From the NCBI GenBank assembly GCA_022843855.1, contig JALHMV010000002.1, positions 14,496 to 78,495 on the forward strand: a stretch of 64,000 nucleotides of DNA. The letters are read 5' to 3'. Of this stretch, positions 8,327-64,000 are shown piece after piece. Position 1 is the stretch's first letter, and each line of letters opens with the position of its first letter. Position numbers and translations under genes: made by a program. The notes under the pieces were generated by a model that was not told the DNA's origin, made no database searches, and was given only the letters and a program-made list of their open reading frames with translations. This DNA is from Patescibacteria group bacterium (GTDB lineage: Bacteria > Patescibacteriota > UBA1384 > 2-12-FULL-50-11).

Positions 8327-9409
8327 ATGAAGCGGCTTCGAGGTATCGGTATTGGCCTGCTAATCACGGTCGGGCTTGTTGGTAGCCTCTCGACTGAGCT
8401 GCGCGCCCAACAATCAAACTCCGGCGTCAATCAGACAGACCGGCTGTTCTTTTCGCCCAGCAGCCTCTCGCCTCTGCTTAGTCAACCGAGCACGACAACG
8501 ATCCGCCTCGACAGCGCCCAGGGAGTGAGTATCGTTTCGCTCGTCCTCAACTACCCGGCCGAACGACTGCGAGTGACTGCGGTTGACTTCTCTGGCTCAG
8601 TCTTCGAAGAAGAAGTTGAACCGGTGACTGATACCAACGGCGAACTGCGCTTTAGCCGCGCTACTTTCCAGGAGAATGGCTATCTCGGCGGCGACGGTCT
8701 TGTCGGTCGGATCAGCTTTGAAGCGATAGCGACCGGTGAGAGCTCCGTAACGGTTGCGGTCGATCAGTCAGAAGTGCTCCACTACATTACTGGCGACAAC
8801 GTGCTTGCCTCGGCTGATAGGCTGACGATCGCCGCCCAGGCGAGCGGCCAAAGCGGATCCGGCAATAACCAATCCGGTGGTGGCGGGGGCGCTGGCTCTA
8901 ATCAAAGCTCGAACAAAAAAACCTCAAAGCGCTCATCGACTATCACGCCGATCGAAATACCGCTGCCGCCGAGCGGTCGTTTGAGCGACATTCGGGCAAC
9001 GGTCGACCAGACTGAGGCGACGATCGCCTGGCAGACCAGCGAAGCGTACGGTTACCGCTTGCTGTTTGGGCCGGATCAAACGGACCTGCAGCCGGAGCGA
9101 CGGCTCGAGCAAAAAGTCGCGCTAACCGAGCACTCAGCCCGTCTCAGTCAACTGACCCCGTGCACAACGTATCGTTTCACACTCAATCTCCTCACCGCCG
9201 TTGATTGGAGCGTGATTGACGAGCCGTATCAAGCCAGCTTCCGGACGCTCGGCTGCGACCAATCAGACGACGCCGTGACGTTGCCGGCGATCGATCGAAA
9301 CTCGGACGGACGTCGAACAATGGCTCTATTCTTGCTTGGACTCTTTATCCTGACCGCCACAACGACCTATCTGATGATCCGCCGCCGGCATCGGGGCGTA
9401 GCGCGCTAG
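8327..9409 (+). CDS. Cohesin-like domain + FN3-like domain surface protein with C-terminal TM anchor
   Basis: Signal peptide; LFFSPSS..VSLVLNYPAERLRV..GDGLVGRISFEAIATGES (cohesin-like); G/S linker; ATIAWQT..LSQLTPCTTYRF (FN3-like); TM followed by RRRHR. Confidence 0.75.
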   Translation: MKRLRGIGIGLLITVGLVGSLSTELRAQQSNSGVNQTDRLFFSPSSLSPLLSQPSTTTIRLDSAQGVSIVSLVLNYPAERLRVTAVDFSGSVFEEEVEPVTDTNGELRFSRATFQENGYLGGDGLVGRISFEAIATGESSVTVAVDQSEVLHYITGDNVLASADRLTIAAQASGQSGSGNNQSGGGGGAGSNQSSNKKTSKRSSTITPIEIPLPPSGRLSDIRATVDQTEATIAWQTSEAYGYRLLFGPDQTDLQPERRLEQKVALTEHSARLSQLTPCTTYRFTLNLLTAVDWSVIDEPYQASFRTLGCDQSDDAVTLPAIDRNSDGRRTMALFLLGLFILTATTTYLMIRRRHRGVAR

Positions 9410-9545: not shown

Positions 9546-9655
9546 TTTCTTGCCTCGAACCACTACACCGCTTGAGCTCAGCAGTTCAAGCCCACAACAC
9601 ACCCGCTCAGGCACTAGAAGCAAGAGAGAACGCTCTGATTTATTTTATTGGGAAA

Positions 9656-9678
9656 GCCCCCGCCAATCTGGCGGGGGC
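9656..9678 (-). terminator. Intrinsic terminator-like hairpin
   Basis: gcccccgcca-atc-tggcgggggc stem; followed by TTT on the minus strand. Confidence 0.6.
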
Positions 9679-9699
9679 ATGGGGATGGACTCGGTCCGA

Positions 9700-9801
9700 T
9701 CAGGACCGGGTCGTGATCGGCTCTTGCTGCCTCGTTGGCAGCCTCAAGATTACACGCGCGGTCCGCGGACCCGCCCGACATCGGGCAAAGTTGTCTGACA
9801 T
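9700..9801 (-). CDS. Candidate 33-aa basic peptide
   Basis: AAGGA SD, then MSDNFARCRAGPRTARVILRLPTRQQEPITTRS*, followed by the terminator hairpin. Confidence 0.3.
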   Translation of the reverse strand: MSDNFARCRAGPRTARVILRLPTRQQEPITTRS

Positions 9802-9949
9802 GATTGTCCTTGATCTTACCGGCACGGTCGCTGGCTAGATCAAGTGAAGAATACCATTTATCTTTGGATTAGTCAACAATTACGAGCACAGTTTTCGCTG
9901 AGTTATTGTGCGACTAGACAACCACCACGGCGCTCGGTAGCCTGAAAGT

Positions 9950-11281
9950 ATGAGCTCGACGCGCCGGATCTTTCTCTTCATCGCCCTGCCGCTGGTAGCG
10001 GTGTTTCTATTGATCGGCTACTTCTGGATAACGGACGTTGACAATAGCGGTCAACGAAAGACCGGCGACGGTCGCACGCAATACACGATCGACTGCCAAC
10101 CGCCCGACGAGCATCAGTGGTACCGCACCGATAATACTTTCCTCATCGATCATAAGAATCCAGACACCCTCTATGTCAGTGTCGAGTGGAAGGGCTTCTT
10201 CAAGTCAGTTGACGGCGGCGAGACCTGGACAAAAGTAGTGAACGGCATCTTCAGCGACCATATTGATAAAGTGACGAAAGAGAACTGCTACGGCGAGTAC
10301 CCAGCGGCGGTTATGGATCCAGAAAATCCCAACAGAATACTGCTAGCTACTTCCGGCTCTCCGGGTACTTTGAAAGACATTAACTCACAAGGCGGTGGCA
10401 TCTACGAAACTACCGACGGCGGCGAGAGTTGGACGCAGAAGATTCGCAACGACATGAACGTCTACTCGACCCGACTCGGGCTCGCGTTTAAACCTGGCGA
10501 CACTCAGACGTACTACTACGGCACCAGCGCTGCGCCGGCATCATATAACGAGGCCGATCAAACTAAGATATTCGTAACGAAAGGGATCATCTATCAGACA
10601 ACCGACAACGGGCAGACATGGACTGAACTTGAAACTGGTTTCATAAAGAACGCCCGACTAATGAGTATCATGGTCCACCCATCTAAGCCGGATACAATCA
10701 CGGCCGCAACAGCGGTCATCAACCGAAATATCGAGGGTCCGAACGATATCGCCGCCCAACAGATGGGTATCATCCAAACCACAGATGGCGGCAAAACGTG
10801 GAAGCGTGTCGACAACCTGCCGGTCGGCTACGAAGGCTCACAAGAAACAAAAGCGGCTCCGTCTAACGGTGACAATATGTTTCATATCCCCATGATCCAA
10901 GGCGACGACAATCTGCCGAAAGCTTTCTACTCACTTGACGGTGGGAAGACGTGGCTGGAGTCAGCTAAACATATGGACTCTGTTTCATACGACCCCCACG
11001 ATCTGAGCGGTAAGCGTCTACTCGGCTACTCTTGGCAGTGTATGGGTGAATGTCAAAAGACGCTCTGGCAAAGTCTCGACGCCGGTAAGTCCTGGCAGTC
11101 GTTCGGAACACTACCCAGCGAGATTAAGAACATCATGGATCAGAAAACTCGTGTACAGAACATCGTCTGGCATCCAACCAACAAGAGTACTTTCTTCATG
11201 ACTGGCGCCGGTGGTTTAGTCTGGAAGACAACTGACAACGGTTCGAGCTGGAACAAACTGCTCGACTACGGTCAATTATAG
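9950..11281 (+). CDS. Membrane-anchored BNR/Asp-box beta-propeller, paralog of 1444-2763
   Basis: Repeated DGG-x-T/S-W motifs; shares C-x-P..QWYRTD, CY.E and YDP.D..G...LGYSWQ with the first copy. Confidence 0.85.
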   Translation: MSSTRRIFLFIALPLVAVFLLIGYFWITDVDNSGQRKTGDGRTQYTIDCQPPDEHQWYRTDNTFLIDHKNPDTLYVSVEWKGFFKSVDGGETWTKVVNGIFSDHIDKVTKENCYGEYPAAVMDPENPNRILLATSGSPGTLKDINSQGGGIYETTDGGESWTQKIRNDMNVYSTRLGLAFKPGDTQTYYYGTSAAPASYNEADQTKIFVTKGIIYQTTDNGQTWTELETGFIKNARLMSIMVHPSKPDTITAATAVINRNIEGPNDIAAQQMGIIQTTDGGKTWKRVDNLPVGYEGSQETKAAPSNGDNMFHIPMIQGDDNLPKAFYSLDGGKTWLESAKHMDSVSYDPHDLSGKRLLGYSWQCMGECQKTLWQSLDAGKSWQSFGTLPSEIKNIMDQKTRVQNIVWHPTNKSTFFMTGAGGLVWKTTDNGSSWNKLLDYGQL

Positions 11282-11329
11282 GCCGGGTCTCGACTCCCAG
11301 GCTAACAGCAGTTACAATTACCGATAACT

Positions 11330-12307
11330 ATGCCAAATGGAAACGCCATTATCGTCAAAGGTTTGCGTAAATCGTACGGCAAGACCGAAGTCTTGAAGGG
11401 CGTTGATCTTGTCGTCGAAAAGGGAACGATGCTCGCCTTGCTTGGACCCAACGGCGCCGGTAAAACAACGGTCGTTCGGATCTTAAGCACCCTCCTTTCT
11501 CATGACGGCGGCGAAGCTTCGGTCAACGGCTACGACACCGCTACCCAATCCAACGAAGTTCGCAGCGTCATCGGCCTGACTGGTCAGTACGCCGCTGTCG
11601 ACGAATACCTAACCGGCCGCCAGAATCTCCTAATGATGGGTCGGCTGTATCGCCTGAGCGCTGCTGGCGCCAGACAGAGAGCCGAAGAGTTGCTCGAGCA
11701 ATTCGACCTCGTCGACGCTGCCAACCGCGTTGTTAAGAAGTACTCCGGCGGCATGCGGCGCCGTCTCGACCTGGCGATCAGCCTCATTGCGACGCCGCCG
11801 ATCATCTTCCTGGACGAGCCGACCACCGGCCTCGACCCACGCAGCCGCTTGGCGATGTGGGACGTTATCCGCAAGCTAATGGATTCCGGCGCGACGATCC
11901 TATTAACCACTCAGTATCTCGAGGAGGCTGATCAGCTCGCCGACAAGATCGCGGTCATTGACCAGGGTCGAGTTATCGCCGAAGGAACAGCCGACGAGCT
12001 CAAGCAGAAAGTCGGGAGCGACCGGCTCGAACTTACAATGGCAACCGACGCTGATTTCGCCAAGGCCGAAAAAATCGTCAGCGGAGATAATAAACAGACC
12101 CACCCGAAACGACGCGTTATTAGTATCGCCACATCGGGCGGTGTTTCGGGCTTAAACGCTGTCCTCTCTAGCCTTGAGAATGCCGGCGTAACCGTCGAAA
12201 CGCTCTCACTTCACAAGCCAACGCTCGACGACGTTTTCTTGCACCTAACCGGCCACGGCGCCGAGGCCGAAGAGCACGAGCCCAACATCGAGGAAACCCA
12301 TGTCTAA
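11330..12307 (+). CDS. ABC transporter ATP-binding protein, DrrA family
   Basis: Walker A GPNGAGKTT, signature YSGGMRRRLD, Walker B IFLDEPTTGLDP. Confidence 0.95.
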   Translation: MPNGNAIIVKGLRKSYGKTEVLKGVDLVVEKGTMLALLGPNGAGKTTVVRILSTLLSHDGGEASVNGYDTATQSNEVRSVIGLTGQYAAVDEYLTGRQNLLMMGRLYRLSAAGARQRAEELLEQFDLVDAANRVVKKYSGGMRRRLDLAISLIATPPIIFLDEPTTGLDPRSRLAMWDVIRKLMDSGATILLTTQYLEEADQLADKIAVIDQGRVIAEGTADELKQKVGSDRLELTMATDADFAKAEKIVSGDNKQTHPKRRVISIATSGGVSGLNAVLSSLENAGVTVETLSLHKPTLDDVFLHLTGHGAEAEEHEPNIEETHV

Positions 12308-15255: not shown

Positions 15256-15675
15256 ATGACTGCTCGCCAAACGCTGTACGCCCGCCTTGCTTTTGTCCTC
15301 GTTTTTTTCTCGGTTGTCGGCAGCCTGTATTTCAGTGAAGTTGCGGGCTTTCCGCCGTGCAAACTGTGTTGGGTTCAGCGCCTCGCAGTATTTCCATCAC
15401 TACTTATCCTGGGAGTCGGCCTGATACGGAAGGACTCACTGCTACACACGTATGTTTTACCGCTTGCTATCCCTGCGCTTTTGGTCTCGGCTTACCATAA
15501 TCTACTCTACTACGGCGTCCTCGCAGAATCCAAAGCAACCTGCGAAGCAGGCATCTCATGCACAACCAAATACATCGAGTGGTTCGGCTTTGTCACTATT
15601 CCGTTGCTAGCCCTGGTAGCCCTCGGTGGACTGACAACGTTAATGATTTTATTTCGACAAGAAGGAAGAAAGTAA
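15256..15675 (+). CDS. dsbB: Disulfide bond formation protein B (BdbC-type)
   Basis: GSLYFSEV..PCKLCWVQR, second Cys pair CEAGISC, TM helices. Confidence 0.88.
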   Translation: MTARQTLYARLAFVLVFFSVVGSLYFSEVAGFPPCKLCWVQRLAVFPSLLILGVGLIRKDSLLHTYVLPLAIPALLVSAYHNLLYYGVLAESKATCEAGISCTTKYIEWFGFVTIPLLALVALGGLTTLMILFRQEGRK

Positions 15676-15712
15676 TGATAGCCATTATATTTCGCAATGA
15701 AGGGAGAAAAGG

Positions 15713-16372
15713 ATGAGTTCGGATATGAAGTTCGTGAGCGTTATGATCGTCGTAGCCATCGCGGCGATTGCTGGCTTCTTTGTCTTTGGCCGCAACGGTG
15801 CCGAGACAAATGGCCCGATCGAACCAGCCGTATTGACTGACGCCGGTCAGCTCGTTCGAGAAGATTCGCCGGTGCGCGGTCCGGCTGATGCGAAGGTAAC
15901 AATCGTTGAGTTCGCCGATTTCCAATGCCCAGCCTGCAAGGCCGCCAAGCCAGTAATTCTGTCTGTTCTCGAAAAGAATCCAACGACCGTCAGGCTCGTT
16001 TTTCGTCATTTCCCAATCTCGTCAATCCACCAACACGCCGATCAAACCGCCCTATCGGCTGAAGCCGCCAAAAACCAAGGAAAGTTTTGGGAATGGTACG
16101 ACAAAATGTACGACGATCAAGAGGCTTGGAGCGCACAATCAAAGCGTAAGATTACCGAATTCCTCACTCAGATCGCCACAGATCTCGGGCTGAACACCGA
16201 GACGTTCACGACTGATGCAGCGGCGGCAGCGACTCGCGATATCGTCGCTCGCGACCTGGCTGACGCCGACGCGCTGGGCGTCAGCTCAACACCGACGTTT
16301 TTCGTCAACGGCCAGAAAATTGAGGGTACCAGCGCCCTCGAAGCCGCCGTTACCGCCGCGCTCGGACGGTAA
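15713..16372 (+). CDS. dsbA: DsbA/BdbD family thioredoxin-fold protein
   Basis: VTIVEFADFQCPAC, FRHFP, GVSSTPTFFVNG; N-terminal anchor. Confidence 0.9.
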   Translation: MSSDMKFVSVMIVVAIAAIAGFFVFGRNGAETNGPIEPAVLTDAGQLVREDSPVRGPADAKVTIVEFADFQCPACKAAKPVILSVLEKNPTTVRLVFRHFPISSIHQHADQTALSAEAAKNQGKFWEWYDKMYDDQEAWSAQSKRKITEFLTQIATDLGLNTETFTTDAAAAATRDIVARDLADADALGVSSTPTFFVNGQKIEGTSALEAAVTAALGR

Positions 16373-17383: not shown

Positions 17384-17872
17384 ATGGAAAGAGCAACCTT
17401 TGGGGCTGGTTGTTTTTGGGGCGTGGAAGCCGCCTTCCGCATGCAGTCAGGCGTCACGAACACGGTAGTCGGCTATACGGGCGGCCAGACCGAAGATCCG
17501 ACCTACGAGCAGGTTTGTCGGGGCGACACCGGTCACATCGAAGCCCTCCAGATCGAGTTCGATCCAGCGACGATCTCGTACCAACGCTTGTTAGATATTT
17601 TTTGGCAGATTCACGATCCGACGCTCATCGATCGCCAAGGCAACGATGTCGGACCGCAGTATCAAGCCGTCATCTTTTATCACAACGACGCCCAGCGTCT
17701 TGCCGCTCAAGCTTCGAAAGAAGCATTAGAGAAGGCTGGACAGTACGACGAGCCGATCGCCACCAAGATCGAACCAGCTGGGCAGTTTTGGCCAGCTGAG
17801 CAAGAGCACCAACGCTATCTTGAACGTCACCCTGGCGGCTACTGCCACATCAACCTCAGAGCTATCCGTTAA
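17384..17872 (+). CDS. msrA: Peptide methionine sulfoxide reductase A
   Basis: ATFGAGCFWGVE, GYTGG, PTYEQVC, HDPT, QGNDVGPQY. Confidence 0.96.
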   Translation: MERATFGAGCFWGVEAAFRMQSGVTNTVVGYTGGQTEDPTYEQVCRGDTGHIEALQIEFDPATISYQRLLDIFWQIHDPTLIDRQGNDVGPQYQAVIFYHNDAQRLAAQASKEALEKAGQYDEPIATKIEPAGQFWPAEQEHQRYLERHPGGYCHINLRAIR

Positions 17873-31279: not shown

Positions 31280-31474
31280 CAGTACAAGGCAACTGCTCCC
31301 CGCACTTCTAGGATTCGTCCAGCGTGCCCGTTTCTCCCGTTGGTCGAAATCGTGGGTTCAAATCCCACCTCTTCCGCAGTACAAGGCAACTGCTCCCCGC
31401 ACTTCTAGGATTCGTCCAGCGTGCCCGTTTCTCCCGTTGGTCGAAATCGTGGGTTCAAATCCCACCTCTTCCGC
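31252..31474 (+). repeat. 97-bp tandem repeat (2.3 copies) giving two extra tRNA-Ser 3' ends
   Basis: atcgtgggttcaaatcccacctcttccgc at 31252, 31349 and 31446, separated by an identical 68-nt spacer. Confidence 0.95.
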
Positions 31475-31507
31475 GATATTGGTAGACTAACAAGAGAAGG
31501 AGAAGGA

Positions 31508-47256: not shown

Positions 47257-47429
47257 GGGCAGCCCCGCTCACAACTTCATCGGATCCCCTCCGCCAGACA
47301 CGGCGCGAGGGGATTTTCTTTGCCTTAAATTTGTATGACTACAGGTATTACCATCGGCCGATGCTGCGTCTTACCACCAGCTAACGCCGGAGAAAAGCCG
47401 CAAATCTCATACGGACGCTTCCAATTTAA

Positions 47430-49505
47430 CTAGATCTGGATGACCACGGGAATAACCATGGGCCGACGCTGCGTCTTTTCAAACAAGAGGTCCCCGACCG
47501 ATTCGCGCAGTTCCTTCTTTAAGGATTCCCAGCTTGGCTTGCCGCGACTGGTCAGGCGGGTGTGAACGCGCTTAATCTCGGCACGAGCTTGCGAGATAAG
47601 ATCCTCCGATTCTTTCATATAGACAAAACCGCGGGAGATGATATCGGGACTGGTCAGCATCTGGCCCTTTTTGCCGTCGAGCGTCAGGATAACCAAGAAG
47701 ACGCCGTCAGCGGCCATCGTTTGACGGTCGCGCAAGACGATCTCGCCGACGTCACCGACACCGAGACCGTCAATTAATACCGAGCCGACATGAACTTTTT
47801 CGTCAGCAATTTTGCCGTTGCCCTTGAGGTCAAACTCTAAGACTTGGCCGTTTTCGATGATGAGGACGTCCTCTTCTTTAGTGCCAAGCTCGACGCAGAG
47901 CTTGCGCATCTCAACAAATCGGCGGTAATCACCGTGAATCGGAACAACGTATCTTGGCTTCACGATGTTTAAGATGTGCTTAATCTCTTCCCTGGAACCG
48001 TGACCAGATGAGTGAATGTCGAGCTCCGACTTGGTAATGACTTCAGCGCCCGCTCGGTACAAGTTGTTGATCGAGAGTTCGACGGCCCGCTCGTTGCCCG
48101 GAACGGTTGAGCTCGACAGAACGACGGTATCGCCTTTTTTGATCCGGACGTGGCGGTGTTCGCCGGCAGCCATTCGGGTCAGAGCCGAGCCTTCCTCACC
48201 CTGGGAGCCAGTACACATGACAACGATTTTATCGTCCGGCAAGCTGTTGATCGTTCGAATATCACTAATCAGGCCTTTTGGCACGTTGAGATACCCTAGA
48301 TCCATGGCGATATTGGTGTTGCGCTCCATCGAGCGACCGGCCAAAAACAGCTTGCGGCCGGTTTTGGCACAGGCATTGATGATGTGTTGAATCCGATCGA
48401 TTCGGGAAGCAAAACTCGAAACAATGACACGCCCTCGGATATCTTTGAGGACGTCTTCAAGCGACTTACTGACAACCGTTTCGCTGAGTGTGTGGCCCGG
48501 AACCAGGACGCCCGTTGAGTCAGTTAACATACAGAGCACACCGCGCTTGGACAGCTCAGCCAGCTTGTCGAAATCAGTTGGTTTGCCGAAGGCGGGGGTA
48601 AAGTCGACTTTCCAGTCGGTGGCGTGGTAAACCAAGCCAGCCGGCGTCGTAAACGCCAGGCCAAGAATATCTGGGATCGAGTGCGTCATCTGGACAGGTT
48701 CGAGCAGGAAGGCGCCGATCTGAATCTTTTGCCCCGGCAAGATGATGCGAAATTCGGCGTTGGTGATACCGTGCTCTTCAAACTTTGCCTTAATAAAGCC
48801 GGCGGTCAGCGGGGCGGTATAGATCGGGACTGGGAATTTTGGCCAGATGTACGGCATGCCGCCGATGTGGTCTTCGTGGCCGTGAGTGATGACAAAAGCG
48901 CGGATTCGGTCGCGGTTTTCTTCGAGATAGGTGGTGTCGCAGACAACGTAATCGATACCCGGCATGTCGGGGGTGGGAAACTTAACACCAGCGTCGACGA
49001 CGATGATATCACGGTCGTACTCGAAGACGAGCATGTTCTTGTCGCCGGTTTCACCGCTTCCGCCGAGCGGAATGATTCGTAGCTTCTCACCATGGCCTTG
49101 GCTGATAATTTTACCTTCGAATGGCTTGACCATCGGTTTGGCCTTAGCTGCTCGCTTCATATTACGGTTGCGTGCCGAACGAGTAACGCCGCCGCCGTTA
49201 TGGTGACGAGGCCGGTTGTCTATCGGTCGGCCAGTATTCTCCTTGGTTTGGCCATCCGGATTAGCCGGGGTAGTTGGAGCGTCGACAGTGGGGCGCGAGA
49301 GCGCTAGACCGTTATGACTGCGGTCGCGGTGCACTGGTCGTGGTCGATTATTGTGGCGGCGGTTACGCCCCCGGTTTTGGTCGCTGTTTGGTCGTGGGCC
49401 TCTCTTTTGAAAGTTGGGCTGCAGGACTGAACCAGCGTCGCTGATATCTACCAGATCGCGGTTATTAGTTGGCGCATCAGTAGCGTCGCTGTTAGTTTCG
49501 GTCAA
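47430..49505 (-). CDS. rnj: Ribonuclease J with long disordered N-terminal extension
   Basis: THGHEDHIGG, THSIPD, TGSQGE, HSSGHG, PIHGD; probable TTG start at 49505 after AAAGGA. Confidence 0.94.
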   Translation of the reverse strand: MTETNSDATDAPTNNRDLVDISDAGSVLQPNFQKRGPRPNSDQNRGRNRRHNNRPRPVHRDRSHNGLALSRPTVDAPTTPANPDGQTKENTGRPIDNRPRHHNGGGVTRSARNRNMKRAAKAKPMVKPFEGKIISQGHGEKLRIIPLGGSGETGDKNMLVFEYDRDIIVVDAGVKFPTPDMPGIDYVVCDTTYLEENRDRIRAFVITHGHEDHIGGMPYIWPKFPVPIYTAPLTAGFIKAKFEEHGITNAEFRIILPGQKIQIGAFLLEPVQMTHSIPDILGLAFTTPAGLVYHATDWKVDFTPAFGKPTDFDKLAELSKRGVLCMLTDSTGVLVPGHTLSETVVSKSLEDVLKDIRGRVIVSSFASRIDRIQHIINACAKTGRKLFLAGRSMERNTNIAMDLGYLNVPKGLISDIRTINSLPDDKIVVMCTGSQGEEGSALTRMAAGEHRHVRIKKGDTVVLSSSTVPGNERAVELSINNLYRAGAEVITKSELDIHSSGHGSREEIKHILNIVKPRYVVPIHGDYRRFVEMRKLCVELGTKEEDVLIIENGQVLEFDLKGNGKIADEKVHVGSVLIDGLGVGDVGEIVLRDRQTMAADGVFLVILTLDGKKGQMLTSPDIISRGFVYMKESEDLISQARAEIKRVHTRLTSRGKPSWESLKKELRESVGDLLFEKTQRRPMVIPVVIQI

Positions 49506-51373: not shown

Positions 51374-51608
51374 GATTGTGCTCCAGATTGACAAAGGGCA
51401 CGACCCCAAACGAACGGAATCGTCCTTCCACTCTAGCATCCGTCGCAGCAAGCGCGATATCCCAAACCGATACGAATCGGTAGCGCTCCTCAGCTCGAGC
51501 GGTGAGCGGGAACGTCGATCAACCAATTCGAACGAGTGAGATGCGTTCGGACGCTATCAAGCCCGTACCCAGATAGCCCGCCGCTCGCCAGAAAGCCACA
51601 GGATAAAC

Positions 51609-53714
51609 TTACCCGATACGCACTAACGAGATTCGACCCCTCTCTGAATCGACGTCCTTGATCCGAACCTTAATCCGGTCACCAATTTTGACCACATCAG
51701 AGACTTTTTGAACAAATTGGCCGTTCAAGCCAAGACTCGAGACGTGAACCATACCGTCGCGGTTTGGCCCAAGCGTAACGATCGCGCCGATCTCGTTGCC
51801 GCGGATCTTATCTTTCACGATCGAAACGACTTCCCCCTCAAACTCTTCGCCGACCTTCGGCGGAATACCGATCGATTCGACGATCTTTTTGACGCGCTCG
51901 GCTTTCTCAGCGTCAGCGGAGGTAATCATGACCGAGCCGTCGTCATCGATATCAATATTCAAGACTTCGCGGCCGCCCTCGGCGTCGATAATACCGTTAA
52001 TCATTTTGCCGCCTGGGCCGATCAGCTCGCCGATCTTCTCCGGATCGATTGTGGTGACGATAATGCGCGGCGCGAATTTGGAAAGTTCTTTTTTCGGTGC
52101 TGGTAGCGTCTTTTCGATCACGTCCATAATCTGCATCCGCGCTGTATAGGCTTTGGCAAACGTATCGCGAATCATCGCTTCGGTGAGGCCTTTGTTCTTG
52201 ACGTCAAGCTGAATCGCGGTAATGCCGTCGCGGGTGCCAGCGATTTTGAAGTCCATCTCCCCGGCAAAGTCCTCTAGGCCCTGAAGGTCAGTTAGCACCT
52301 GAAATTCGTCGTCGGTCTTTCCTGTCACCAAACCCATCGCGATACCAGCGACTGGCTTTTCGATCGGGACGCCGGCCGCCATGAGCGACAGCGTCGAACC
52401 GACAACCGCCGCCATCGAGGTTGAGCCGTTGGAGCCCATGATCTCACTGACAACCCGAATCGTGTACGGAAACTCGTCGCGAGCCGGGATAACGGGAACG
52501 AGCGCTTTTTCGGCTAAGGCCCCGTGACCGATCTCGCGGCGACCGGTGCCAAGGCGACGAACCTCACCCGTTGAGTACGGCGGAAAGTTGTAGTGGTGGA
52601 TGTAGCGCTTTTTCCAAAGCGAATCCAAGCCCTCAACCCACTGCTCGTCGCTTGGGCCGGCCAGAGTCGTGATCGTCAGCGAACTGGTCTCCCCGCGACT
52701 GAAGAGCGCGGAACCATGGACGCGCGGCAGAAGATCGATCTCAGCCGAAAGCTCGCGAACCTCATCCATTCCTCGGCCATCAGGACGTTTTTTGTCATCG
52801 ATAATCAACGACTTAATCGCTTTAAAGTACGCGGCTTCAACGGCGCTTTTAATCTCTTGGGCTTCAAACTTTTCGCCGAGTTCCTCGAGCGCTTGTGTTG
52901 TGATAGCTGACACTAGGTCTTCTCGCTTGTCGTAATCGGTCTCGGTAACAGCTTTGGCCAGATCTTTGCCGAATTTTTCTTTTACCAAGCCGTACGATTC
53001 TGGCTCAGTGTACTGAGAATCTTCTTTAGCCCCCCCGACAAATTCGCCCTGTGGAGCGTTGGCGGCCTTGAGCCCCTCGAGACCGACCATCATCGCCTCG
53101 ATCATCTCTTCTTCTGGCATCTCCAAGCTGGCAGCTTCGATCATGTTGATCTTTGTGTCCGAGCCAGCGACCAATAGGTCGAGTGTACTGTCTTCGAGCT
53201 GCGTGTTGGTTGGATTGAGAACGAGTGAGCCGTTGATCTTGGCAACTCGAACGGCAGCGATCGGACCTTCAAACGGCGCATCGGTCTGCAGTAGCGCACA
53301 CGACGCACCGACAACCGCTAGAGCCGACGGATCGTGCTCACCGTCGTACGACAGGGTCGTAACGATGATCTGAACGTCGCGACGGAAACTTTTCGGAAAC
53401 ATCGGTCGGATCGAGCGGTCGATGAGGCGGCCACGTAAGACAGATTCGTCAGATGGCTTATTTTCGCGCTTCATAAACTTCGAGCTCGAGATCTTACCAG
53501 CAGCGTAGAACCGCTCTTCGTAATCGACTGTTAACGGAAAGAAGTCCGTTCCTTCTTTCGCCGTTTTCGCGATTGTCGCCGTTACCAGCACAACCGTTTC
53601 CCCGTCCGTTACCGTCACTGCGCCGCTGGCGCGGCGAGCTAACTTACCGCTCTCCGCAATAATTTCGCGATCACCAAAAGGAATGGCGACGCGCTTGATC
53701 TTCGCTTCTTTCAT
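51609..53714 (-). CDS. pnp: Polyribonucleotide nucleotidyltransferase
   Basis: FFPLTVDYEE, RPDGR, RREIGHGALAE, SNGSTSMA, KH and S1 domains. Confidence 0.97.
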   Translation of the reverse strand: MKEAKIKRVAIPFGDREIIAESGKLARRASGAVTVTDGETVVLVTATIAKTAKEGTDFFPLTVDYEERFYAAGKISSSKFMKRENKPSDESVLRGRLIDRSIRPMFPKSFRRDVQIIVTTLSYDGEHDPSALAVVGASCALLQTDAPFEGPIAAVRVAKINGSLVLNPTNTQLEDSTLDLLVAGSDTKINMIEAASLEMPEEEMIEAMMVGLEGLKAANAPQGEFVGGAKEDSQYTEPESYGLVKEKFGKDLAKAVTETDYDKREDLVSAITTQALEELGEKFEAQEIKSAVEAAYFKAIKSLIIDDKKRPDGRGMDEVRELSAEIDLLPRVHGSALFSRGETSSLTITTLAGPSDEQWVEGLDSLWKKRYIHHYNFPPYSTGEVRRLGTGRREIGHGALAEKALVPVIPARDEFPYTIRVVSEIMGSNGSTSMAAVVGSTLSLMAAGVPIEKPVAGIAMGLVTGKTDDEFQVLTDLQGLEDFAGEMDFKIAGTRDGITAIQLDVKNKGLTEAMIRDTFAKAYTARMQIMDVIEKTLPAPKKELSKFAPRIIVTTIDPEKIGELIGPGGKMINGIIDAEGGREVLNIDIDDDGSVMITSADAEKAERVKKIVESIGIPPKVGEEFEGEVVSIVKDKIRGNEIGAIVTLGPNRDGMVHVSSLGLNGQFVQKVSDVVKIGDRIKVRIKDVDSERGRISLVRIG

Positions 53715-62830: not shown

Positions 62831-63742
62831 TTAGAGTGCCCTCCGGCGTCGCTTCTGGGCGTACCGGTATATGGTATACCAGACCGGGCGATGAACCAAG
62901 TCCCAACTCCCCAACATCCTCACCGATTGGCCGCCGAACTGCGTCTTGAACCGGGTCAGACCAGCATGCACATGGTCTTCTTTTCCTTCTGGCGCGATTG
63001 CGAGCAAGTCGTACACCTGGCAACCTTCTTTCTTGGCCCGCTTGATCGCCGCCCAGTGCATCAGGTACGGCGCCATGAGACTCCGATCCCCGCCCGAGCC
63101 ACCGTAGAGATAGCTGGCTACATTACCGTAGAAAGTGACGAGCGCGGCCGCCAAAACCTCACCGTTACGACTCACGGTAACAATCTCACCAAGTCTATCG
63201 CCGCGGATTGCCTCAACGAGCGCCACAAAATAAGCAGAATCGCGTCCGGCAAAACCGGTCCGCTTAGCCGTTTCTTGGTACAGGCTAGCAAGCGCCTCAA
63301 CTTTTTCTGGCTCCAGTCCCCAGGCAACCTTCAGGTCGTGCTTTTCAGCTACCCGAATGTTGTAGCGACCTTTCGGCTTCATTTCCTTCAGAAGCTCGTC
63401 CTCGGTCTTGTCGAGCAGCACCCACTGCCGGTAATCCGGTTGAACATCCTCAAACGACTTGGTCAGTCCCAGCTCAACGAGACGCTTGGCGTTGTCAGCC
63501 GTCCAGACATTCAAAAATTCAAATCGCGTAAATATTCGATTACTTGGTACTGCCTGCTTAGCTTCGTGACGAACAAATCCTAGACTTTCCTCATTGAGCG
63601 GTAACTCCGGAAAATAGAGCATCGACTTGCCAAAGCCGAGCACCCGCTCGAGGCCGTAAAAGTCCCCTGTTTGCTTAACTTCCCAGCCAAACCGCTCCTT
63701 AAAACGGCTCCAAGCTTCAGTTTGAAAGACAGATCGCAGCAT
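62831..63742 (-). CDS. FemABX family peptidoglycan bridge aminoacyltransferase
   Basis: FQT..W..FK, QP, RYNIR.A.K, YLYGGS, YD.., GL.RFK..FGG. Confidence 0.9.
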   Translation of the reverse strand: MLRSVFQTEAWSRFKERFGWEVKQTGDFYGLERVLGFGKSMLYFPELPLNEESLGFVRHEAKQAVPSNRIFTRFEFLNVWTADNAKRLVELGLTKSFEDVQPDYRQWVLLDKTEDELLKEMKPKGRYNIRVAEKHDLKVAWGLEPEKVEALASLYQETAKRTGFAGRDSAYFVALVEAIRGDRLGEIVTVSRNGEVLAAALVTFYGNVASYLYGGSGGDRSLMAPYLMHWAAIKRAKKEGCQVYDLLAIAPEGKEDHVHAGLTRFKTQFGGQSVRMLGSWDLVHRPVWYTIYRYAQKRRRRAL

Positions 63743-63781
63743 TCATGTACTAGTATACGTCCAACCTGTAAAATTAACGAG

Positions 63782-63871
63782 ATGCGGATACTAGCGATTG
63801 AGACATCCTGTGACGCATTCGACTCGTCCGAAGGACGGGGGAGAATTACGAGCGGGGAGTTACACTTATGA
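63782..63871 (+). other. Upstream 29-codon mini-ORF starting with a synonymously recoded copy of the tsaD N-terminus
   Basis: [11 protein letters not shown] then [18 protein letters not shown]; its TGA overlaps the tsaD ATG (ATGA). Confidence 0.85.
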
Positions 63872-64000
63872 GAATATTGGCAATCGAGACTTCCTGCGAC
63901 GAAACGGCGGCCGCAATCGTTGAGGACCACAACTATCAGCCAGTCGTCATTAGCAACATTGTCGCCTCGCAAATGGAGGTTCACGCCGAGACCGGTGGGG
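63868..64000 (+). CDS. tsaD: tRNA N6-threonylcarbamoyladenosine transferase TsaD (5' part only)
   Basis: [33 protein letters not shown]. Confidence 0.92.

What the first reader, a model, noticed from the sequence alone, without database searches (positions are those of the whole stretch)
63769..63900. tsaD start duplicated with purely synonymous recoding, joined by a 53-bp insert and translationally coupled
Seen: ATG CGG ATA CTA GCG ATT GAG ACA TCC TGT GAC (63782) and ATG AGA ATA TTG GCA ATC GAG ACT TCC TGC GAC (63868) both encode [11 protein letters not shown]. They differ at 8 nt in 6 codons, and every change is synonymous. Copy 1 sits 7 nt after a TAAAAT box, the leaderless position used by many genes here. 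It reads on through the insert (hairpin gtcc-gaa-ggac, SD-like GGGGAG) to a TGA that overlaps the ATG of copy 2. Known: TSCDE is the conserved N-terminal motif of TsaD/Kae1. Inference: a simple slippage duplication would not give only synonymous changes. Either an element integrated at the conserved TSCD|E site and brought its own replacement gene start, or both copies are under protein-level selection, for example as a regulatory leader or a splicing/bypass arrangement.
Basis: partly seen in the sequence, partly recalled or inferred. Interest (0 to 1): 0.82.

Follow-up and report, generated by a model that had tools for sequence, protein, structure and literature searches.

The report
Tiny insert carrying spare gene start
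An 86-base piece of DNA has slipped into the start of an essential tRNA-modifying gene of an ultra-small bacterium, bringing its own differently spelled copy of the first 11 codons and a hairpin matched to that copy, and the same kind of self-repairing insert sits at the ends of many other core genes, which points to a little-described, very small kind of mobile DNA.

Summary
The same double tsaD start occurs in 6 of 19 genomes of this Patescibacteria family, once as a triple. At least 8 gene starts and 6 gene ends of this genome show the same layout.

New here: the insert carries an 8-9-base 'guide' complementary to the end of the DOWNSTREAM copy. It covaries with that copy's serine codons (permutation 58 of 40320, against 0.68 for the upstream copy). 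The 'SD-like' motif is this guide. The upstream ORF stops within -1..+4 of the second ATG in 23 of 33 units, against 2 and 4 after frame shifts.

Best reading: an enzyme-less cassette [hairpin + guide + foreign gene start] inserts repeatedly at a conserved motif and displaces the resident start, which survives as a coupled leader. No long form, enzyme or spliced form was found at tsaD. It works like dusA-type islands but is not a member. The scan noted this class before on other DNA (e1-852527 and others). My paper searches found no description of it.

The parts
63769..63774 (+). -10-like box TAAAAT, 7 nt before the first ATG (putative leaderless promoter)
   Evidence: sequence; spacing peak of TAnAAT at 6-10 nt before ATGs; no full sigma-70 site called; promoter activity inferred
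63782..63814 (+). outer copy of tsaD codons 1-11; inferred displaced resident start, now the start of the leader ORF
   Evidence: polarity inferred from other loci; at this locus the test is uninformative or points the other way (10 vs 6 differences to a distant congener)
63782..63871 (+). 29-aa upstream ORF whose TGA overlaps the tsaD ATG (ATGA)
63815..63867 (+). 53-nt non-coding insert: hairpin scaffold, guide, short spacer
   Evidence: single-copy in this genome; scaffold shared with relatives' tsaD inserts
63823..63839 (+). 7-bp stem with GAA loop (variable central hairpin of the scaffold)
   Evidence: fold; the same core is in the G003 and G011 inserts
63852..63860 (+). guide: 9 nt complementary (7 Watson-Crick + 2 G-U) to the end of the inner copy; includes the 'SD-like' word
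63868..63900 (+). inner copy of tsaD codons 1-11; working start, inferred to have arrived with the insert
63889..63897 (+). partner strand of the guide (Thr-Ser-Cys codons); the helix closes a 28-nt loop that holds the ATG and ends 3 nt before the junction
63868..64000 (+). 5' part of tsaD (337 aa, continues beyond the window to G000:C2:79376)
62831..63742 (-). divergent FemAB/FemX-like gene sharing the 39-nt intergenic region; context only
   Evidence: below family cut-offs
47325..47477 (-). mirror-image unit at a gene END in the same window: last 15 codons + stop occur twice (10 nt differences, 1 aa) around a 57-nt insert; gene named RNase J from a recalled motif
51519..51632 (-). second gene-end unit in the window: ISLVRIG* twice (8 nt differences, 0 aa) around a 66-nt insert

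Best explanation
The 86 nt [insert + inner copy] are one unit: a non-coding, enzyme-less gene-end-replacement cassette. SHOWN: (1) the unit has a fixed anatomy - hairpin scaffold, a guide complementary to the junction-proximal end of the gene fragment it carries, a short spacer, and a recoded copy of the gene from ATG to a conserved motif; (2) the guide goes with the inner copy, not the outer one; (3) units stack at one site and are swapped between close relatives; (4) the upstream ORF nearly always stops at the new ATG; (5) mirror units exist at gene ends. INFERRED: the unit enters as DNA from another lineage, most likely as single-stranded DNA during natural transformation, and is joined at the conserved TSCD|E motif by short-homology or hairpin-directed recombination. 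The carried start becomes the working N-terminus and the resident start is pushed outward. The synonymous differences are simply those between two species' orthologous starts. The insertion is tolerated because ribosomes still load at the old leaderless start, open the guide helix and restart at the overlapping ATG. The moving enzyme is unknown; a trans-acting small GIY-YIG nuclease is the best candidate, and host recombination alone is the alternative.
For: Guide covariation: across 8 tsaD units the guide fits the downstream copy (58 of 40320 permutations as good) and not the upstream one (27420 of 40320). Across 33 start units in 15 genes, 25 had differing ends: 18 pair better with the inner copy, 0 with the outer, 7 tie. 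An energy-free score gave 22 inner, 3 outer, 8 ties. In the G004 triple each guide fits the copy below it. Patch swap: G003 and G011 differ at 1 of 33 nt in copy 1, 0 of the first 28 insert nt and 3 of the first 60 nt downstream, but at 7 of 33 nt in copy 2, and the right halves of their inserts differ. One scaffold occurs at different genes with gene-specific guides: a scaffold-only search gave 6 matches in 162 genomes; the 4 in this family lie at tsaD, fusA (twice) and an rplJ-like start, each with a guide for the downstream start (read by eye); the 2 in another family do not. Coupling: 24 of 33 units have length = 2 mod 3; stop within -1..+4 of ATG2 in 23 of 33, against 2 and 4 after dropping 1 or 2 bases. 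Polarity: the outer copy is closer to a congener's single gene end in 8 of 11 gene-end units and in 3 of 3 tsaD units of genus g2 (not independent). The closest relative's single gltX start is identical to the outer copy for 26 nt. ComEC is present in 5 of 5 unit-bearing genomes. Recoding level: 50 of 100 same-residue codons differ between the tsaD bodies of G000 and G002, similar to 6 of 11 between the two copies.
Against: No mobilising enzyme was found: Y1 transposase, reverse transcriptase and Cas1 were 0 of 5 genomes each (completeness 85-95%), and G000 has no stand-alone GIY-YIG. No empty allele, circle or excision joint appeared in four runs' contigs. Polarity at gene starts between G000 and G001 split 5 to 5, and at this very locus the inner copy is nearer the congener's start (6 vs 10). 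Against G002, efp tied (31/31) and the RNase J end slightly favoured the inner copy (7/8). Outer copies are mostly intact, and two upstream typA copies in different genera differ at 5 positions, all synonymous (listing); this needs fast turnover or else selection on the 'dead' copy. The guide is weak or absent in 8 of 33 start units (score <7) and weaker at gene ends (10 inner, 3 outer, 2 ties of 15). The G000 region alone does not fold better than shuffles (z -1.6). Units were picked by eye from scans of five genomes plus fetched loci, and related genomes are not independent, so the p-values overstate.
Confidence: 0.62

Rival explanations
1. Scar of a larger integrative element (integrase island or nuclease-bearing element) that replaced the tsaD 5' end and was then deleted down to about 50 nt; the small unit is not itself mobile.
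For: Same polarity as dusA islands (PMC4482086, passages). Small GIY-YIG genes in this family sit at tRNA/tmRNA 3' ends, some with repeated target fragments and hairpins. The hairpin inserted in the G126 tsaD copy resembles the one in front of those genes (by eye).
Against: No long form at tsaD in the GTDB or metagenome pattern scans (the pattern needs this insert family's first bases), among 42 multi-hit genomes, or in a 2.5-kb upstream scan of three genomes and part of a fourth. Stereotyped 50-155-nt lengths, stacking and guide match are hard to get from random deletion.
Confidence: 0.15
2. An evolved regulatory leader: both copies are kept by selection, and the guide helix makes TsaD synthesis depend on translation of the leader (for example sensing t6A-dependent decoding).
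For: Coupling bias; helix around the start codon as in the RNA-unfolding model (PMC12548453, passages); G-U outnumber A-C pairs on the sense strand 17 to 7 (p=0.06); outer copies are mostly intact.
Against: Present in only 6 of 19 family genomes, including only one of two close congeners in places. The leader peptide is unconserved after TSCD. The same layout occurs at 15 unrelated gene starts and at gene ends, where coupling cannot apply. Some outer or middle copies are decaying (lepA, efp, G034 tsaD).
Confidence: 0.1
3. Local birth without mobility: a hairpin-triggered fold-back duplication (copy, inverted piece, copy) made in place, with the outer copy later overwritten by recombination with other strains.
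For: Some units have identical or nearly identical copies (topA 0 differences; lepA of G000 identical over 42 nt). In tsf of G001 the guide extends over most of the copy. This probably explains how new units are born.
Against: Where the copies differ, the outer one tends to be the vertical one. In triples each guide matches the copy below, not the one above.
Confidence: 0.08
4. RNA-level removal (splicing) or ribosomal bypass joins copy 1 to codon 12, so copy 1 is the true N-terminus.
For: The two predicted helices bring both junctions close together; outer copies are mostly intact.
Against: Strong selection for stop/start overlap would be pointless if the insert were removed. Inner copies keep ATG and reading frame in 8 of 8 tsaD units. 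There is no stop after the take-off codon and the hop would be 86 nt. No Rfam match (0 at E<=1).
Confidence: 0.04
5. Chimeric assembly of two strains.
For: The genome is a 39-contig assembly with 3% contamination.
Against: Independent genomes carry the same arrangement with related inserts; public contigs span it.
Confidence: 0.01

Closest known systems
dusA-associated genomic islands and prophages (DAI tyrosine integrases; PMC4482086, passages read)
   Same: Insert in the 5' end of a tRNA-modification gene, supply a new 5' end (first beta-strand), and leave the original 5' end as the outer boundary, with imperfect direct repeats.
   Different: Those are kilobase islands with their own integrase and one target gene family. 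This unit is 86 nt, has no gene, occurs at many different genes and both gene ends, stacks in tandem, and has a guide matched to the carried fragment.
Prophage e14 / phage 21 at E. coli icd with the icdC relic (recalled; also named in earlier scan notes; my search returned nothing relevant)
   Same: Replacement gene end with a displaced, recoded relic - the layout of the gene-end units.
   Different: Large integrase-encoding prophages.
MIRUs of mycobacteria (as summarised in PMC12548453, passage read)
   Same: Short, apparently mobile units at start codons made harmless by a -4 coupled ORF.
   Different: MIRUs are a multi-copy repeat family that inserts at the start codon. Here each insert is single-copy, the junction is inside the coding region, and a gene-specific fragment is carried.
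Ssn (GIY-YIG, cd10448) / SRM-NTS hairpin systems (PMC11893778; abstract, sections 10, 12, 17 and passages read) and REP/RAYT (recalled)
   Same: Small hairpin elements acting on single-stranded DNA in naturally transformable bacteria; small GIY-YIG genes with hairpins occur in this family.
   Different: SRM consensus matches 0 of 33 units; no nuclease gene at the locus; the paper's main text has no mention of Patescibacteria, tRNA or start codons.
Insertion with long target duplication of RM systems (PMC2853133; abstract and section 10 read)
   Same: Insert flanked by repeats of more than 30 bp, no mobility gene.
   Different: There the repeats are nearly identical and the cargo is RM genes; here 25 of 33 nt are identical, changes are synonymous, and there is no cargo.
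T4 gene 60 translational bypass (recalled; one search listing seen)
   Same: About 50-nt structured insert after a codon repeated downstream.
   Different: No stop after the take-off codon; a full second start is present; 86-nt distance.

Membership tests
TsaD (TIGR03723) | full-length match above the curated cut-off from ATG2 | tested here: met
   384.5 bits vs 296.1
dusA-type 5'-end-replacing integrative elements | element supplies a replacement 5' end | tested here: met
   second start joined to the gene body and covarying with the insert
dusA-type 5'-end-replacing integrative elements | original 5' end left as the outer boundary | tested here: inconclusive
   supported at gltX, typA, g2 tsaD and 8 of 11 gene ends; 5 vs 5 at G000/G001 starts; reversed at this locus
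dusA-type 5'-end-replacing integrative elements | integrase gene inside the element | tested here: not met
   53-nt insert; no long form found
dusA-type 5'-end-replacing integrative elements | excised circular form and restored empty site | tested here: inconclusive
   no such joint in contigs of 4 runs; contigs drop rare variants
Ssn/SRM system | SRM consensus motif | tested here: not met
   0 of 33 units, (motif)
Ssn/SRM system | adjacent single-domain GIY-YIG gene | tested here: not met
   none at tsaD; G000's only PF01541 match is in a 571-aa frame
Ssn/SRM system | cd10448 identity of the family's small GIY-YIG proteins and ssDNA cleavage at the hairpin | not testable with these tools
   no CDD library; NCBIfam gave nothing above cut-off for 4 proteins
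REP/RAYT or IS200/IS605 derivatives | Y1 transposase in the genome | tested here: not met
   0 of 5 genomes, 85-95% complete
REP/RAYT or IS200/IS605 derivatives | many near-identical copies per genome | tested here: not met
   insert single-copy in G000; strict scaffold in 4 of 162 genomes
MIRU-like start-codon elements | coupling by -4 overlap with the target gene | tested here: met
   ATGA here; 17 of 33 units
MIRU-like start-codon elements | multi-copy repeat inserted at the start codon itself | tested here: not met
   junction after codon 11; single copy
Insertion with long target duplication (RM type) | repeat longer than 30 bp | tested here: met
   33 nt
Insertion with long target duplication (RM type) | near-identical repeats and RM cargo | tested here: not met
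   25 of 33 identical; no ORF
Self-splicing introns / catalogued RNAs | Rfam match; reverse transcriptase for group II mobility | tested here: not met
   0 matches at E<=1 in 4 loci; RVT_1 0 of 5
T4 gene 60-type bypass | stop codon right after the take-off codon (recalled feature) | tested here: not met
   frame stays open for 18 more codons
CRISPR-like Cas1 repeat-spacer expansion | Cas1 present, identical repeats, unrelated spacers | tested here: not met
   Cas1 0 of 5; repeats recoded and inserts related

The most novel reading that the evidence does not exclude
These are autonomous-looking but gene-less mobile elements of 50-150 nt with a folded single-stranded (possibly circular) intermediate. 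The built-in guide pairs with the captured gene fragment to define the element's end, and a trans-acting small nuclease or ligase inserts the unit at conserved motifs near either end of essential genes. This would be a new class of minimal mobile element that routinely swaps gene termini between Patescibacteria species.
Probability: 0.25. Interest if true: 0.88.

Novelty: new variant of a known kind. Interest (0 to 1): 0.66.

Why it matters
If right, streamlined symbiont genomes under 1 Mb carry a dozen or more tiny, self-rescuing inserts in essential genes, and the N- and C-termini of those genes are often foreign. That bears on how mobile DNA can be minimal yet harmless, on how CPR bacteria start translation (leaderless loading plus reinitiation), and on gene-start annotation. 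The guide gives a concrete, testable handle on the unknown insertion chemistry; a base-pair-defined, very small insertion unit could also interest tool builders. If it is only a recombination scar, it is still a widespread genome feature that I did not find described.

Tried and rejected
- Long form with a gene at tsaD: not found. The GTDB pattern scan gave 6 loci (5 short units with sequences already seen, 1 chance match). The metagenome scan gave 3 (1 new short unit, 2 without the motif). The phylum search listed only 150 of 456 matches. A follow-up of 42 multi-hit genomes gave 2 close pairs, both short. The 2.5-kb upstream scan gave tandem paralogues and one 913-nt case in a methylase-like gene.
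- Repeat copies of the insert in G000: none. Scaffold in viral contigs: 0 (one exact 18-mer only).
- Rfam 0; SRM motif 0 of 33; Y1 transposase, RT, Cas1 0 of 5. One XerC/D-sized tyrosine recombinase in each of 5 genomes is read as housekeeping.
- RNA evidence: no RNA holder on record; the four runs laid were contigs, probably DNA, so they say nothing about splicing or expression. One run's contigs stop on both sides of the duplication; not interpretable.
- Strand test: G-U vs A-C 17:7 at starts (p=0.06) and 7:5 at ends: inconclusive. GC3 of inner vs outer copies: no difference. Circular folding gave two hairpins rather than a single rod; stronger with the inner copy in 7 of 8 (DNA, one by only 0.1) and 6 of 8 (RNA), but not clearly for G000.
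- The first permutation picked the wrong guide for 2 of 8 units and was redone. One fold (L006) used wrong coordinates and was ignored.
- Rows dropped: 3 of 18 gene-end candidates (one tRNA-like, two weak or atypical); 1 of 7 lepA pattern matches was a false positive.
- Paper searches without a description of this arrangement: (open-access library only; supplements not read).

Full report
OBSERVATION. The two 33-nt copies, the 8 synonymous differences in 6 codons, the 53-nt insert and the ATGA overlap are all as described. The window ends inside the gene; the genome shows an intact 337-aa TsaD from the second ATG. The insert is single-copy in the genome. Public contigs reproduce the arrangement: one spans the whole 1.6-kb stretch with no difference (it may be the source), one from another run spans the duplication in one piece, and one from another study covers the right part with 4 differences. 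No contig skips the insert. These runs are probably DNA and are contigs, so they give no information on RNA.

DISTRIBUTION AT tsaD. A double-motif pattern matched 6 of 162 class genomes, all in this family (6 of 19 including G000); G004 has three copies. A named record with the same arrangement is titled Candidatus Berkelbacteria. One more unit came from a metagenome contig. Two genomes of other families (G034, G126) have a different form, in which a hairpin sits in the first copy and is followed by a few native codons. No tsaD unit held a gene.

ANATOMY. The family's inserts share a scaffold with a variable central hairpin. Right after the scaffold come 8-9 bases complementary to the Thr-Ser-Cys codons of the downstream copy. 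Four spellings of these codons occur and the guide follows each one. Reassigning downstream copies among the 8 units gave an equal or better total in 58 of 40320 permutations; for upstream copies 27420 of 40320. The helix ends 3-4 nt before the junction and encloses the ATG in a 23-32-nt loop. In G000 it has 7 Watson-Crick and 2 G-U pairs.

A GENOME-WIDE HABIT. Scans found duplicated starts at 8 G000 genes (tsaD, lepA, typA, efp, gltX, dinB, topA, tsf) and others in G001 and G011, but none in 400 kb of G009. Gene names other than tsaD come from recalled motifs, not from a family search. I assembled 33 start units in 15 genes by eye. Of 25 with differing ends, 18 pair better with the inner copy and none with the outer; a symmetric score gave 22, 3 and 8 ties of 33. 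A search on the scaffold alone found two further fusA units and an rplJ-like unit with guides for the downstream start, and two unrelated matches in another family. Duplicated lepA starts were found in 6 of 401 phylum genomes, of the second form. Mirror units lie behind stop codons: 7, 8 and 3 candidates in G000, G001 and G011, two of them in this window. There the guide signal is weaker (10 inner, 3 outer, 2 ties of 15).

WHICH COPY IS OLD. The outer copy is nearer a congener's single end in 8 of 11 gene-end units and in 3 of 3 tsaD units of genus g2. The closest relative's gltX start equals the outer copy for 26 nt, and gyrB (8 vs 13), typA (5 vs 8) and fusA (13 vs 15) lean the same way; efp ties and the RNase J end leans the other way by one. 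Starts compared between G000 and G001 split 5 to 5, and at tsaD itself the inner copy is nearer (6 vs 10); synonymous sites are close to saturation at that distance. So polarity is supported for the class and only inferred for this locus. G003 and G011 share copy 1, the left insert and the gene body but differ in the right insert and copy 2. This is what a second unit inserting at the same junction, followed by collapse, would leave; G004 shows the uncollapsed triple.

WHY IT IS TOLERATED. 24 of 33 units have a length of 2 mod 3. The upstream ORF ends within -1..+4 of the new ATG in 23 of 33, against 2 and 4 when one or two bases are removed. A -10-like box lies 6-8 nt before the first copy in all 7 tsaD loci. 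I infer that ribosomes load at the old start and restart at the new one, opening the guide helix on the way, as in the coupling models reviewed in PMC12548453 (passages). This bias argues against obligatory splicing or bypass.

HOW IT MOVES. Not shown. Five unit-bearing genomes lack Y1 transposase, reverse transcriptase and Cas1 matches and all have ComEC. Stand-alone small GIY-YIG genes occur in 7 of 19 family genomes, often behind tRNA or tmRNA genes with hairpins and sometimes repeated target fragments, but not in G000. Ssn nucleases of this superfamily cut ssDNA next to hairpins and modulate transformation (PMC11893778), which makes them candidates, but the SRM motif matches 0 of 33 units. 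My reading is import as transforming ssDNA and joining at the conserved motif, with the two helices bringing the junctions together. Birth of a unit by fold-back copying at a hairpin would explain gene-specific guides; that step is speculation.

COMPARISON. It works like dusA-associated islands, which supply a new 5' end and leave the old one as the outer boundary (PMC4482086), and like MIRUs in using a -4 overlap. It is a member of neither: no integrase, no cargo, no multi-copy repeat. Nine paper searches found no description; subscription journals and supplements were not seen.

EARLIER SCAN NOTES. The scan has met this class on other DNA: the same tsaD arrangement with a start 'locked in a hairpin' (e1-852527, seen, after my guide note), lepA, NYN and miaB starts, and many gene ends in CPR bacteria and archaea. 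These are unchecked notes and are not counted as support. What I tested here is the covariation, the coupling statistics, the stacking and swapping, and the polarity.

VERDICT. Real, recurrent and apparently undescribed in the searchable literature. A new, minimal variant of gene-end-replacing insertion; mechanism of movement open. Interest 0.66.

Noticed in passing
window 47325-47477 (-) and 51519-51632 (-): Two gene-end duplications with recoded copies around short inserts (RNase J-like gene; S1-domain-like gene end; names recalled).
   Followed up: partly
window about 15620-15720 (+): Possible further duplicated gene end (…ILFRQEGRK* then …IIFRNEGRKG*), 41 nt apart; left out of the counts.
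   Followed up: no
window about 31320-31480 (+); G000:C13 about 17610-17770; G000:C2 about 8340-8520: Repeated tRNA-like fragments: a 97-nt-period repeat of a tRNA 3' part in the window, a duplicated tRNA 5' part around a hairpin insert on C13, and tandem tRNA-end repeats on C2.
   Followed up: no
G000:C8 (- strand, about 9600-11700): First ~50 codons of a 1051-aa methylase-like gene occur twice, 913 nt apart, with a ~200-aa ORF of unknown kind in between: a candidate long form.
   Followed up: partly
L249-L258: TsaD proteins of many class members carry in-frame insertions at several loops, made of palindromic or heptamer-repeat-derived sequence.
   Followed up: partly
L124: A small GIY-YIG gene lies inside what reads as the 5' part of a 16S rRNA gene in G009 (recognised by eye).
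   Followed up: no
L122, L150: tRNA-Lys 3' end followed by a terminator, a segment complementary to the T arm, hairpins, a repeat of the tRNA end and a small GIY-YIG gene: a mirror-like layout with an enzyme.
   Followed up: partly
L070, L071: Two genera share the same typA module (short start variant + related insert + rare second variant, 2 of 27 nt different), which suggests transfer or long retention.
   Followed up: partly
G001:C1 about 10030-10155: The FemAB-like neighbour of tsaD has a duplicated, recoded C-terminus in the congener; its outer copy matches G000's single end.
   Followed up: yes
L262, L264: Intergenic arrays of related hairpins in G116 that match the scaffold pattern but are not at gene starts.
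   Followed up: no
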